DNA of 3,206 nucleotides from Escherichia coli (GTDB taxonomy: Bacteria > Pseudomonadota > Gammaproteobacteria > Enterobacterales > Enterobacteriaceae): NCBI RefSeq assembly GCF_003334255.1, contig NZ_QOWU01000127.1. One strand, written 5' to 3'. Below are positions 1-3,000 of this stretch, piece by piece. Within the stretch, counting starts at the first letter, position 1; each line of letters begins with the position of its first letter. The position numbers were made by a program.

Positions 1-3000
1 GAATGGCGAAAAACGGGCTGTATGGTGTGAGCGTCAGACGGCTTGTTGGTGCCTGATGGCGGTCCTGCCGGATGCGCAGAATCTTCTGATAGTTCAGAAG
101 GTGCAGATGATGAATAAAGAGAGATGCCGGACAATCGGAAGAAAACGTTACACCACAGGCGCAATGTGCTTCATGCTGTTTGTGTGGCTTGGTGGTGTGC
201 TGGCTCTTGTTGCTACAGCTGCGGTGGTAATGCAGTAAAAAAAGGGGAGCAACATGCTCCCCGACCAGAAGAAAGACGTTTGATAACAATTAGTGAGTTG
301 TTACGTCTTGTCCAGAATATCATAGCAACACTCTGTTGCAGTGATACCGATCGCGATTTTAGCGAATTCCATCATAAATCCCCTGATTTTTAAGCCTGAA
401 GCAGTCAAAGGAATTTCTATGCCCTATATCGATATCACCACGATGCGTGGGATGATGCCGCGCGTTGTGACATCCATGCTGCCCGAGCATTCCGCTGTAC
501 TGGCGGAGGACTGCCATTTCCGGTTTGGTGTTATTACACCAGAACGTCAGATATCCGGGGTTGAGAAAACATTCACAATTAAGCCAAAAACAATTTTTCA
601 TTACCGTGACGATTTCTGGTTTGCATGGCCGGATGTGGTGGATGTGATCCGCAGTCCGATCGCTCAGGACCCCCACGGGCGTATTTACTACACTGACGGG
701 CGTTTTCCTAAAGTGACGGATGCGACCATTGCCACAAAAGGGGACGGGAATCACCCGACATCATCGTATCGTCTTGGGATCCCCGCGCCGACGACAGCTC
801 CTGTCTGTACTGTCCAGCAGGGCGGTGATGTTTCTGACGATAACCCGAATGATGATGAAACCCGGTTTTATACGGAAACCTTTGTCTCAGATTATGGTGA
901 AGAAGGTCCGCCAGGTCCGGCGTCTCTGGAGGTAACACTCCGTACTCCGGGAACTGCGGTACAACTGACGCTGGCTCCGGTGCCATTGCAGAATGCCAGT
1001 ATTAAACGTCGTCGTATTTATCGTTCTGCATCAGGTGGAGGGGAGGCGGATTTTTTACTTGTGGCTGAACTGGATGCATCCGTGCTCAGTTACACGGACA
1101 AAATACCGGCGAAAAACCTTGGACCTTCGCTGGCGACATGGGATTACCTGCCGCCGCCAGAGAATATGACAGGCCTTTGCCTGATGGCTAACGGTATTGC
1201 CGCCGGGTTTGCCGGTAATGAAGTGATGTTTTCGGAAGCGTATCTGCCGTATGCATGGCCGGAAGTGAATCGTCACACGACGGCAGAAGATATTGTAGCT
1301 ATCTGTCCGCTCGGAACGTCACTGGTGGTGGCGACAAAGGGTGAGCCTTATCTGTTCAGTGGTGTATCGCCTTCCACAATTTCCGGCTCCAGAATTCCTT
1401 CAATGCAGGCGTGTCTGAGCAGGCGGAGTATGGTCGCGATGGAGGGCTTTGTGCTGTATGCAGGAACAAATGGCCTGGTGTCTGTTGATGCAAACGGTAA
1501 TGCCGCTCTGGCGACGGAGCAGATTATTTCGCCGGAACAGTGGCAGAGTCAGTTTAATCCGGCCTCCATTGTGGCTTATCCCTGGCGTGGTGAATACATT
1601 GCCTGTTACACGAAACCGGATGGTAAGCAGGATGTGTTTGTCTTCAACCCGGCAGGTATGGATATCCGCTACCTCAGTACACCTTTTGACTGCGCATGTG
1701 TTGACCTGGTTAACGATGTTATGCGGGTGGTATCAGGACAAAACATGTCTGCGATCGCCGGAGGGAGTTTGCCGTCGACAATCAGATGGCATTCAAAGGT
1801 ATTTTCCCTTCCGGAAAGAACCTCTTTCTCCTGTCTCAGGGTGAAGTCTCCGACGCCAGAGCGGGTGGGAATTACTGTGCTGGCAGATGATGTTCCGGTG
1901 ATTCACCTTGCACCTGGAAGCTTTTCGGGAAGCGTTGTGAGATTACCTGCTGCAACCGGGCAAAACTGGCAGATACTGGTTTCCGGTTTTGGTCAGGTTG
2001 AACGTATTACACTCAGTACATCGATGTCGGAGCTGCCGGTATGACAAAAAAACCGTGGCGCGCAGGAAAGGATTTATCTGCGGTTGTGGAAAATATGGAG
2101 ATAGGGACAGGACAACGTGGCGATGGTCGTCATGCTTTTGTAACCCGTGAAGAACTGGTCGGTCTGAAGCTGGCCCGTCGCCGGACTTCAGGTGGTGCCG
2201 CATATGCCCTTAATCCGGGGATTGAGATGGACAGCTCTGTAATGGTCGTTGATTTCCCATCGAAACCTCAGAATTTTAAGGCGACAGGGGGATTTGGCTC
2301 GGTACTGCTTGAATGGGATATGCCGAATTATCGCGGTCATTCACTGACTGAAATCTGGCGGGGTACGGAGGATGACCTTTCGGATGCGGTGCTGGTTGCC
2401 ACGACGCCGGGGCAGGTTTACGGTGATCCGGTTGATCCGGGCTGGTCGGGATTCTACTGGATACGCTTTGTTAATGCAGCGGGAGTGAAAGGGCCATGGA
2501 ACGCGGTAAAAGGCACTCCCGCACAAACCCAGATAAGCGTTCAGGCCATTATTGACCAGATCAAGGAGGAGGCTGCAAAGTCACCGGTGGTGGAAGAGCT
2601 GCGTAAGGAAATAAAGAATGCTCAGGGGCAGGCAGTAAAGGACGCGGCAATCGAGACGACGGAAGTTGTGGGTAATCTCAGGGAAGAAACACTGAAAACT
2701 ATCGGTGGTATTGATACCCGTGTTACGGGGATGAATAAGTCAACCAGTGAAGAGCTTAATAAGGTAAATGAGCGCATCACTAAGGTGGATAAAGAAGGCG
2801 GTGAAGCTTTCCTGGCCATGTGGTCAAAAAAGACCGGTGTTGAGGGAATTACTGCGGGGATCGGAATTGTTGCAGGAAAAGATGGTGAAGGGAAGCCGGT
2901 AAGCCAGGTTGCAATTTCGGCATCGCAGTTGTTTGTCTTTGACCCGAACAACCCGGATAACACAGCCTATCCCTTTGTGGTGTCAGGTGGAAAAGTTGTT

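What the first reader, a model, noticed from the sequence alone, without database searches (positions are those of the whole stretch)
237..262. Terminator-like hairpin oriented against the direction of the tail genes
The 8-bp GC-rich stem has its homopolymer tract on the 5' side on the + strand. It would therefore terminate minus-strand RNA, yet no minus-strand gene lies to its right; the tail genes there are on the + strand. It may stop antisense transcription entering the upstream genes, end an antisense sRNA from the 262-418 spacer, act as a stabilising stem-loop, or be a scar of a moron insertion.
Basis: seen in the sequence. Interest (0 to 1): 0.45.

Follow-up and report, generated by a model that had tools for sequence, protein, structure and literature searches.

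The report
Orphaned leftward terminator at a moron junction
The hairpin is a genuine transcription stop signal for the opposite strand, inherited together with the tail end of a neighbouring gene that this phage has since lost; it marks a cut-and-paste junction in the phage genome and is ordinary.

Summary
Minus strand 262..244 forms an 8-bp, 6-GC stem (GGGGAGCA/UGCUCCCC, loop UGU) followed by U7 (243..237), -15.4 kcal/mol. A motif this strict appears in 2 of 1000 dinucleotide shuffles. The plus strand has no U tract after the stem.

The window is a 933W-like (Sepvirinae) prophage of the Eib-carrying P-EibD/PhiR12_3 type. The hairpin follows the stop codon of orf-60D. The next real gene, the L0124 homologue, starts at ATG 419.

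Window 237-~362 is homologous to the terminator and ~95-nt 3'UTR of a minus-strand prophage YkgJ-family gene. That gene is intact in E. coli ABU 83972 and is a pseudogene next to an eib/orf-156/orf-60 cassette in other strains. Homology stops at the ykgJ stop codon, a relic at 361..359, and the coding sequence is gone.

In other lambdoid prophages the same hairpin lies between convergent orf-60 and dinI or ykgJ genes. Ten variant copies all keep the hairpin and a U run, with two compensatory stem changes.

I found no supported minus-strand promoter, Rfam match, Hfq-CRAC peak or Ribo-seq ORF. Verdict: an orphaned intrinsic terminator marking a mosaic (moron) junction. At most it now insulates the cassette from antisense transcription. 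Low interest.

The parts
56..238 (+). orf-60D, a small C-terminally hydrophobic protein (phrog_9340). The real start is probably ATG 107 or 110. Its stop codon TAA (236-238) overlaps the A run.
   Evidence: ORF list; P-EibD annotation; the phrog_9340 profile covers residues 18-60; relatives are 41-61 aa and found only in E. coli.
237..243 (-). U7 tract of the terminator, which reads as an A7 run on the plus strand.
   Evidence: Sequence. The run is 5-7 U in all variant copies.
244..262 (-). Terminator hairpin: 8-bp stem GGGGAGCA/UGCUCCCC with a 3-nt loop.
   Evidence: The stem is identical in three Sepvirinae alleles whose flanks differ. Compensatory changes occur in lambdoid-prophage copies.
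263..362 (-). Relic 3'UTR of a lost minus-strand YkgJ-family gene. The relic stop codon TAA is at 361..359.
   Evidence: Local alignment with the ykgJ 3'UTRs of L010 (score 119) and L013 (score 51), against a shuffle mean of 16 and 0 of 500 shuffles reaching the observed score. Alignments; sequences.
363..418 (+). A 56-nt segment present only in the Sepvirinae context. It carries the Shine-Dalgarno sequence AAGGA (408-412) of the L0124 homologue and has no similarity to the ykgJ loci.
   Evidence: scores at shuffle level. It is identical or nearly so in the window, 933W and phage 86 alleles. It is absent from P8983, where similarity starts at the ATG.
419..2044 (+). L0124 homologue (541 aa), matching internal virion protein family phrog_511. 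It starts at ATG 419, not GTG 341.
   Evidence: tblastn homology starts at residue 1 in Vibrio and Ralstonia phages. RefSeq Sakai ECs_1232 and the PhiR12_3 annotation are both 1626 nt. PHROGs match.
2041..3206 (+). L0125 homologue, a tail fibre or tail tip protein. It is cut by the end of the window and its start overlaps the L0124 stop (ATGA).
   Evidence: Annotations; PF09327 Phage_Tail_Tip in locus L146.

Best explanation
The element is a canonical Rho-independent terminator for leftward (minus-strand) transcription. It did not arise here. In lambdoid E. coli prophages the same hairpin lies between two convergent genes. On the plus strand is the last gene of the eib cassette (orf-60 family) or another small gene. 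On the minus strand is a dinI or YkgJ-family gene, and the hairpin with its U tract ends that gene's mRNA.

Recombination placed the cassette between the tail-fibre genes and L0124 of a 933W-like phage. The hairpin and the ykgJ 3'UTR came with it, but the ykgJ coding sequence did not. The junction falls exactly at the old stop codon.

In this window the terminator is therefore orphaned. It can still stop any RNA polymerase moving leftward out of L0124 before it runs antisense into orf-60, orf-156 and eib. It is harmless to rightward late transcription because the plus strand has no U tract. It needs no function of its own to be present.

Shown: the structure, its asymmetry, the homology, the convergent-gene contexts, and the compensatory stem changes. 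Inferred: the direction of the transfer, that termination actually occurs, and any present insulating role.
For: (1) The anatomy is that of a strong intrinsic terminator on the minus strand only.

(2) Window 234-366 on the minus strand aligns significantly with the region between the ykgJ stop codon and the terminator. This holds for E. coli CFIAFB20190157 (L010, score 119) and ABU 83972 (L013, score 51), with 0 of 500 shuffles reaching either score. blastn gives 77.9% identity over 129 nt, E = 2e-15 (H150). Similarity ends at CTAAA, the ykgJ stop codon.

(3) In ABU 83972 the 110-aa YkgJ gene is intact and the hairpin is its only downstream terminator. 108-112 complete E. coli genomes carry the hairpin and the ykgJ paralogue together.

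(4) Loci L136-L140 have the arrangement eib, 157-aa gene, orf-60 rightward, then the hairpin, then intact dinI leftward. The hairpin lies 8 nt from the orf-60 stop and 10 nt from the dinI stop. Loci L141-L143 have the same arrangement with intact ykgJ.

(5) All 10 variant copies fold at -12.3 to -17.7 kcal/mol and are followed by U5-U7. Pair 8 changes from A-U to U-A and pair 7 from C-G to U-A, both compensatory. Pair 1 changes from G-C to G-U. No change disrupts the stem.

(6) Between the window and 933W alleles the stem arms are 16/16 identical. The flanks are 27/32 and 43/81 identical.

(7) Phage P8983 has L0124 with an unrelated upstream region and no hairpin. The whole spacer therefore belongs to the variable cargo module.
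Against: There is no direct evidence that any RNA ends here. No Term-seq or RNA-seq data were accessible.

The direction of transfer is inferred only from the fact that the terminator's orientation makes sense with a minus-strand gene. It could have gone from lambdoid prophage to Sepvirinae or the other way.

The perfect conservation of the stem between alleles with diverged flanks could mean the element is still selected in the Sepvirinae context. That would make it not merely a relic. It could equally reflect repeated exchange with cassettes where the terminator is in use. The data cannot separate these two readings.

The hairpin lies closer to the plus-strand stop codon (about 5 nt) than to the relic minus-strand stop (about 96 nt).
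Confidence: 0.72

Rival explanations
1. The spacer encodes a short minus-strand regulatory RNA of about 75-125 nt that starts in 311-365 and ends at the hairpin. It would resemble the convergent anti-sRNAs found just downstream of moron genes in EHEC prophages. It could act on read-through transcripts of orf-60 or L0124, or in trans.
For: The 3' end resembles an Hfq-binding module as described in the literature cited by Tree et al. 2014. It has a U/C-rich stretch (CUUUCUUCUGG), then a GC hairpin, then U7. The window allele has an extended -10-like TGCTATGAT at 327..319 on the minus strand. The window-allele RNA folds strongly, at -43.3 kcal/mol with z = -5.9. Prophages are known to carry sRNAs convergent to the late operon next to morons (PMC4104026).
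Against: The extended -10 match is at chance level, with 2 found against 1.9 expected. It is lost in the 933W, L010 and L013 alleles. No sigma-70 promoter was found by the scan. There is no Rfam match even at E <= 10. Only the terminator is structurally conserved; the covariation term is positive and z-scores are -2.0, -2.1 and -0.4 in other alleles. The strong fold is equally strong on the plus strand (z = -5.4), so it reflects DNA inverted repeats. Sakai has no Hfq-CRAC peak at about 1287460-1287755. Hücker et al. list no intergenic translated ORF there. Both negative results concern the 933W allele in uninduced cells.
Confidence: 0.1
2. The hairpin works on the plus strand. It would be a 3' stabilising stem-loop, or a weak non-canonical terminator, that defines the 3' end of the orf-156/orf-60 (and eib) moron transcripts in lysogens.
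For: In every context a plus-strand gene stops 1-8 nt before the hairpin. The hairpin is equally stable as plus-strand RNA, at -15.4 kcal/mol. No other plus-strand terminator lies between orf-60 and L0124.
Against: There is no U tract on the plus strand; GACCAGAA follows the stem in the window, and CAAACCGA, GAAACAGG, GTAAAGAA and AATCGGAA in relatives. The run conserved in all copies is the A run, which forms the minus-strand U tract. If only a stem were needed, there would be no reason to conserve that run. Termination efficiency and RNA half-life cannot be computed here.
Confidence: 0.12
3. It is a bidirectional terminator shared by convergent transcription units, stopping both strands.
For: It lies between convergent genes in relatives.
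Against: From my own knowledge of the literature, bidirectional intrinsic terminators have a U tract after the stem on both strands. Here only the minus strand has one, in all ten copies. In the window a plus-strand terminator would also be polar on the essential downstream virion genes unless overridden by Q antitermination.
Confidence: 0.04
4. It is a chance inverted repeat next to a chance A run.
For: The stem type GGGGAGC...GCTCCCC is generic. More than 120 unrelated viral contigs carry it after an A run.
Against: 2 of 1000 shuffles give such a motif. It is conserved with compensatory changes across contexts.
Confidence: 0.01

Closest known systems
Rho-independent (intrinsic) terminators at the 3' ends of convergent gene pairs
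   Same: GC-rich 7-9 bp stem, short loop and U5-U7 tract. In relatives it lies 10 to ~100 nt after the stop codon of a same-strand gene (dinI, ykgJ) and faces a convergent gene.
   Different: In this window the same-strand gene is missing. It is unidirectional, with a U tract on one strand only.
Moron boundaries and mosaic junctions of lambdoid phages (Juhala et al. 2000, as cited in PMC4104026 and PMC8065619)
   Same: It lies at the edge of a variable cargo module: eib/orf-156/orf-60 here, cor-like/orf22/orf24 in phage 86, L0122/L0123 in 933W, and nothing in P8983. That module is inserted in the late operon. Junctions fall at gene boundaries (the ykgJ stop codon, the L0124 ATG).
   Different: A classical moron carries its own terminator in the orientation of its own gene. 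This terminator points the other way and belonged to the neighbour of the cargo.
Convergent prophage sRNAs next to moron genes (AsxR, AgvB, EcOnc27; Tree et al. 2014, PMC4104026)
   Same: Location just after a moron coding sequence, orientation against the late operon, and a terminator with a long U tail.
   Different: No sequence or covariance-model similarity (Rfam holds AsxR RF02703 and AgvB RF02702; no hit). No Hfq-CRAC peak at the Sakai locus. No promoter.
ykgJ-ecpE-like sequences captured by prophages (attB-in-PP_2; Nakamura et al. 2021, PMC8112680)
   Same: It shows that ykgJ-region DNA is a recurrent passenger at the ends of E. coli lambdoid prophages.
   Different: That element is the 5' (ykgJ-ecpE) side and serves as a secondary attachment site. 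The window holds only the 3'UTR and terminator of the prophage ykgJ paralogue, and these differ from the K-12 ykgJ terminator.

Membership tests
Intrinsic (Rho-independent) terminator | GC-rich stem of about 5-14 bp with a short loop and stable folding | tested here: met
   8 bp, 6 GC, 3-nt loop, -15.4 kcal/mol, z = -3.4.
Intrinsic (Rho-independent) terminator | U-rich tract immediately 3' of the stem on the terminated strand | tested here: met
   U7 at 243..237 on the minus strand. No T in the 8 nt after the stem on the plus strand.
Intrinsic (Rho-independent) terminator | Lies downstream of a gene or transcript on the same strand | tested here: not met
   Not met in the window. No conserved minus-strand gene or supported promoter lies to the right. 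Met in relatives: intact ykgJ and intact dinI.
Intrinsic (Rho-independent) terminator | RNA 3' ends map to the U tract in vivo or in vitro | not testable with these tools
   No Term-seq or RNA-seq data were accessible. The Sy et al. 2020 supplement is not held.
Intrinsic (Rho-independent) terminator | Structure maintained in evolution | tested here: met
   10 variant copies all fold. There are two compensatory pair changes, one G-C to G-U change, and none that disrupts the stem.
Bidirectional intrinsic terminator | U tract after the stem on both strands (A tract 5' and T tract 3' on one strand) | tested here: not met
   Only the A tract is present, in all copies.
Hfq-dependent prophage sRNA (AsxR/AgvB-like or other) | Own promoter and transcription start | tested here: not met
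   No sigma-70-like site in 263-480 on the minus strand. The extended -10-like match is at chance frequency and not conserved.
Hfq-dependent prophage sRNA (AsxR/AgvB-like or other) | Match to a described RNA family | tested here: not met
   No Rfam hit in 1-480 at E <= 10. None in the related loci either.
Hfq-dependent prophage sRNA (AsxR/AgvB-like or other) | Hfq binding or detection in vivo | tested here: inconclusive
   No peak in Table S2 of Tree et al. 2014 for Sakai at about 1287460-1287755. That is the 933W allele under one set of conditions.
Type I toxin-antitoxin (small hydrophobic toxin plus antisense RNA) | Antisense RNA overlapping the toxin mRNA, with toxin and RNA retained together | tested here: not met
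   A minus-strand RNA ending at 237 would not overlap the orf-60 coding sequence. 933W keeps the hairpin although orf-60 is reduced to a 12-codon relic. Toxicity of orf-60 was not tested.

The most novel reading that the evidence does not exclude
The retained hairpin and 3'UTR are not a passive relic. They would form a self-contained module that phages keep and exchange. The module's borders coincide with the stop codon of whichever minus-strand gene precedes it, in three independent contexts: ykgJ, a dinI-like relic, and no gene at all. It would yield a short minus-strand RNA, either 3'UTR-derived in lambdoid prophages or promoter-driven from TGCTATGAT in the window allele. That RNA would regulate the adjacent eib/orf-60 cassette or the L0124 leader, or would act as an insulator selected to protect lysogenic-conversion genes from antisense transcription.
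Probability: 0.1. Interest if true: 0.45.

Novelty: new member of a known kind. Interest (0 to 1): 0.18.

Why it matters
Its main value is for annotation and for reading phage mosaicism. It explains a 180-nt 'empty' spacer in the virion-gene region of 933W-type Stx phages. These occur in 169 phage records and 357 of 5426 complete E. coli genomes. The spacer is the leftover 3' end of a convergent ykgJ-type gene.

It also shows that the eib cassette of P-EibD-type phages came from, or was exchanged with, the right end of lambdoid prophages. It supports ATG 419 rather than GTG 341 as the L0124 start. It flags several over-annotated ORFs across the spacer.

It is a clean example of a terminator serving as a shared joint between exchangeable modules. 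It does not open a new mechanism.

Tried and rejected
(1) Minus-strand small ORF 375..301 (MMEFAKIAIGITATECCYDILDKT, preceded by AGGGGA). Rejected. The 933W allele gives an 18-aa product with a different C-terminus after a frame-shifting indel. There is no PHROG hit. Hücker et al. 2017 report no Ribo-seq ORF there.

(2) The 131-aa antisense ORF 359-754. This is a shadow ORF in register with the L0124 codons, and it is broken in P8983.

(3) The idea that 363-418 is the old ykgJ 5' region, meaning a clean in-frame deletion. No similarity beyond shuffle level.

(4) EcsR2, the sRNA in the K-12 yagU-ykgJ spacer (PMC4350180). It lies on the other strand, and K-12 ykgJ has a different terminator.

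(5) PasB and other Pas sRNAs, and HnrS. These papers give no sequences or matching locations. PasB was not formally excluded.

(6) Scan of viral contigs for AAAAGGGGAGC-N5-6-GCTCCCC. More than 120 hits, nearly all unrelated generic terminators; only two were 933W-like.

(7) Conserved secondary structure of the whole relic 3'UTR. Not supported.

(8) Literature search for L0124, L0123, ORF-60 and eibD. Nothing on this element.

(9) Term-seq data from Sy et al. 2020. The supplement is not held.
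Full report
**What is in the window.** The 3206-base window is 99.9% identical to Escherichia phage PhiR12_3 and 98-100% identical to GER2 and the P-EibD fragment of ECOR-9. It is about 90% identical from position 205 onward to 933W, VT2-Sakai and about 180 other short-tailed Stx phages of the Sepvirinae.

On the plus strand it holds four genes:
- the last codons of orf-156D;
- orf-60D (56-238);
- a homologue of 933W L0124;
- the first 388 codons of the L0125 tail-fibre/tail-tip gene.

The L0124 homologue starts at ATG 419, not at the GTG 341 used in the 933W record. tblastn similarity to Vibrio, Ralstonia and other phage 'internal virion proteins' begins at residue 1 of the ATG form. 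RefSeq Sakai ECs_1232 and PhiR12_3 are also annotated at 1626 nt. Positions 239-418 are therefore a true 180-nt spacer.

**Checking the observation.** The A run is 237-243, the stem arms are 244-251 and 255-262, and the loop is 252-254.
- On the minus strand this reads GGGGAGCAUGUUGCUCCCC followed by U7. It folds at -15.4 kcal/mol with z = -3.4.
- It is the top hit of the terminator scan.
- A strict definition (8 Watson-Crick pairs, at least 6 GC, at least 6 T in the next 8 bases) finds only this site. It matches in 2 of 1000 dinucleotide shuffles of the window.
- On the plus strand the stem is followed by GACCAGAA, with no T.

**Is there a minus-strand gene or RNA to terminate?** I found none that holds up.
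- *24-codon ORF (375..301).* It has a plausible Shine-Dalgarno sequence. In the 933W allele it becomes an 18-codon ORF with a different C-terminus, because the alleles differ by indels. It has no PHROG match.
- *131-codon antisense ORF (359-754).* It uses the same triplets as L0124 and is split in P8983. It is a shadow ORF.
- *Promoter.* The sigma-70 scan finds no promoter on the minus strand near the spacer. An extended -10-like TGCTATGAT at 327..319 occurs at chance frequency, with 2 found against 1.9 expected. It is not conserved in the other alleles.
- *Rfam.* Nothing in the spacer even at E <= 10.
- *Hfq-CRAC.* In Sakai the element lies at about 1287585-1287603 of NC_002695.2. Table S2 of Tree et al. 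2014 lists no peak between ECs1230 and ECs1232.
- *Ribo-seq.* The supplements of Hücker et al. 2017 list no small ORF there.

The two published negative results concern the 933W allele and uninduced cells, so they are weak evidence.

**Where the element comes from.** A blastn search of 205-430 against complete E. coli genomes gave one outlier. In strain CFIAFB20190157 (locus L010), positions 230-358 of the window match at 78% (E = 2e-15), next to a minus-strand YkgJ-family pseudogene.

That locus reads: tail-fibre DUF4376 gene, an Eib-like YadA-anchor gene, an orf-156-like gene, a 41-aa orf-60-like gene, the hairpin, then ykgJ on the opposite strand, then host genes.

In E. coli ABU 83972 (locus L013) a lambdoid prophage ends with gpJ, lom, a tail-fibre gene, two small genes, the hairpin, and an intact 110-aa YkgJ-family gene on the minus strand.

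Local alignment of window 234-366 (minus strand) with the stretch between the ykgJ stop codon and the terminator scores 119 (L010) and 51 (L013). The shuffle mean is 16, and 0 of 500 shuffles reach either score. Similarity runs up to CTAAA, which contains the ykgJ stop codon; its relic is at 361..359 in the window. It then ends abruptly. The 56 nt between that point and the L0124 ATG resemble neither ykgJ locus.

The hairpin and the ykgJ paralogue occur together in 108-112 complete E. coli genomes. The core K-12 ykgJ has a different terminator.

**The general arrangement.** Homologues of orf-60 occur only in E. coli. Their genomic contexts show a constant pattern at the right end of lambdoid prophages. 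The pattern is DUF4376 tail fibre, Eib (YadA anchor), a 157-175-aa gene, and orf-60, all rightward. A convergent intact dinI (82 aa; L136-L140) or intact ykgJ (110 aa; L141-L143) then follows leftward.

In L136 the hairpin lies 8 nt after the orf-60 stop and 10 nt after the dinI stop. A second type of 3'UTR-plus-hairpin module is shared between ykgJ (L141/L142) and a dinI-like relic (L014). There too the junction is at the stop codon.

The hairpin is thus the terminator of the leftward member of a convergent pair. Recombination joints fall on either side of it and at gene ends, which is the usual pattern of phage mosaicism.

Within the Sepvirinae, the site between the tail-fibre genes and L0124 holds different cargo:
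- eib/orf-156/orf-60 in the window (PhiR12_3, P-EibD; the same arrangement in E. coli contig L146);
- orf22, a cor-like gene and orf24 in phage 86;
- L0122, L0123 and relics of the orf-156 and orf-60 tails in 933W;
- in P8983, a 'tail fibre adhesin' gene (ORF66) followed by an unrelated 234-nt spacer without the hairpin.

**Conservation.** All ten variant copies keep a hairpin of -12.3 to -17.7 kcal/mol followed by U5-U7. They come from the window, 933W, TL-2011c, PPwrbA_EC3734, phage 86, Stx2_EH2011, L010, L014/L141, L136 and L013.
- Counting pairs from the base of the stem, pair 8 is A-U in the Sepvirinae alleles and U-A in L010, L014 and L141.
- Pair 7 is C-G everywhere except L136, where it is U-A.
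- Pair 1 is G-C, or G-U in L013.
- No change breaks the stem.

Between the window and 933W alleles the arms are 16/16 identical. The left flank is 27/32 identical and the next 81 columns are 43/81 identical.

This shows constraint on the structure. It does not show where that constraint acts, because the alleles may have been exchanged with cassettes in which the terminator still serves ykgJ or dinI.

Nothing else in the relic 3'UTR is structurally conserved. The consensus fold has a positive covariation term and many broken pairs. The strong fold of the window allele (z = -5.9) is matched on the plus strand (z = -5.4) and is absent from the other alleles (z = -2.0, -2.1 and -0.4).

**How it most likely works.** It is a unidirectional intrinsic terminator. 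RNA polymerase moving leftward transcribes the GC stem and then the U7 tract and releases. Polymerase moving rightward meets the same stem without a U tract and continues.

That suits its position in the late operon, which is read from pR' by Q-modified polymerase. This point is established knowledge, summarised in PMC8065619.

In this phage no gene feeds into it. Its only possible task is to stop stray antisense transcripts that arise in or beyond L0124 before they cross orf-60, orf-156 and eib. That role is inferred, not shown, and the element may simply be carried along.

**Rivals.**
- *Active short sRNA.* Not excluded, but it lacks a promoter, conservation and detection.
- *Plus-strand stabilising stem.* Possible, because a plus-strand gene ends just before the hairpin in every context. 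It does not explain why the A run is what is conserved.
- *Bidirectional terminator.* It fails the U-tract test.
- *Chance.* Excluded.

**Comparison with known systems and novelty.** The element meets the structural definition of an intrinsic terminator. It fails only the 'has an upstream gene' criterion in this window, and it meets that criterion in relatives. It is not a member of any described prophage sRNA family.

I found no paper describing this hairpin. The P-EibD record annotates two other stem-loops but not this one. It is a new, unremarkable member of a known kind: an orphaned terminator at a moron junction.

**Verdict.** Interest is low (0.18). The most novel reading still open has about a 10% chance. 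It is that the 3'UTR-plus-terminator is a self-standing exchangeable module producing a functional RNA or acting as a selected insulator.

Noticed in passing
window 56-238 (especially 107-112): orf-60D is annotated as 60 aa. The PHROG profile phrog_9340 covers only residues 18-60, and relatives are called at lengths from 41 to 61 aa, the shortest starting near this point. The real start is probably ATG 107 or 110. The product is a basic N-terminus followed by one hydrophobic helix, of unknown function, found only in E. coli.
   Followed up: partly
L001 (933W) ~2940-3030; L009 (Sakai) 7480-7580: 933W and Sakai Sp5 keep only relics of the cassette left of the hairpin. One is an 18-codon ORF matching the orf-156 tail (MAKNGLYGVSVKHLACAE*). 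The other is a 12-codon remnant of the orf-60 tail (MLLVATAAMIMQ*). This implies an internal deletion relative to the window type.
   Followed up: partly
L007 (PPwrbA_EC3734) ~1657 onward; window ~360: An IS66-family element (487-aa transposase, end sequence GTAAGCG) is inserted at the same point as the relic ykgJ stop codon and mosaic junction.
   Followed up: no
window 263-366: The window allele of the spacer carries extra inverted repeats, for example GGTATCACTGCAACAGAGTGTTGCTATGATATT. These give z = -5.9 on the minus strand and z = -5.4 on the plus strand. They are weaker or absent in the 933W, L010 and L013 alleles.
   Followed up: partly
window 359-754 (- strand): A 131-aa antisense ORF is annotated as ORF-11c in Stx2 converting phage I and is the basis of phrog_24576. 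It is in codon register with L0124, ends at the relic ykgJ stop codon, and is split into 66 + 54 aa in P8983. It is most likely an annotation artefact.
   Followed up: yes
window 341-418: The GenBank 933W and ST2-8624 start of L0124 (GTG, equal to window 341) adds 26 codons that lie in the relic 3'UTR and junction segment. ATG 419, preceded by AAGGA at 408-412, is supported.
   Followed up: yes
L141/L142 3126-3252; L014 2527-2649: A second, unrelated ~120-nt 3'UTR type carries the same hairpin family. It is shared between an intact ykgJ and a dinI-like relic, and the junction is again at the stop codon. This suggests that 3'UTR-plus-terminator units are exchanged as modules.
   Followed up: partly
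It has 28-39% identical homologues in Vibrio, Ralstonia, Burkholderia, Erwinia, Pseudomonas and Agrobacterium phages.
   Followed up: no
window 124-393 (+ strand): An 89-aa out-of-frame ORF runs through the hairpin. A shorter ORF across the hairpin is annotated in ST2-8624 (vBEcoSST28624_69). Indels between the alleles make a conserved product unlikely.
   Followed up: no
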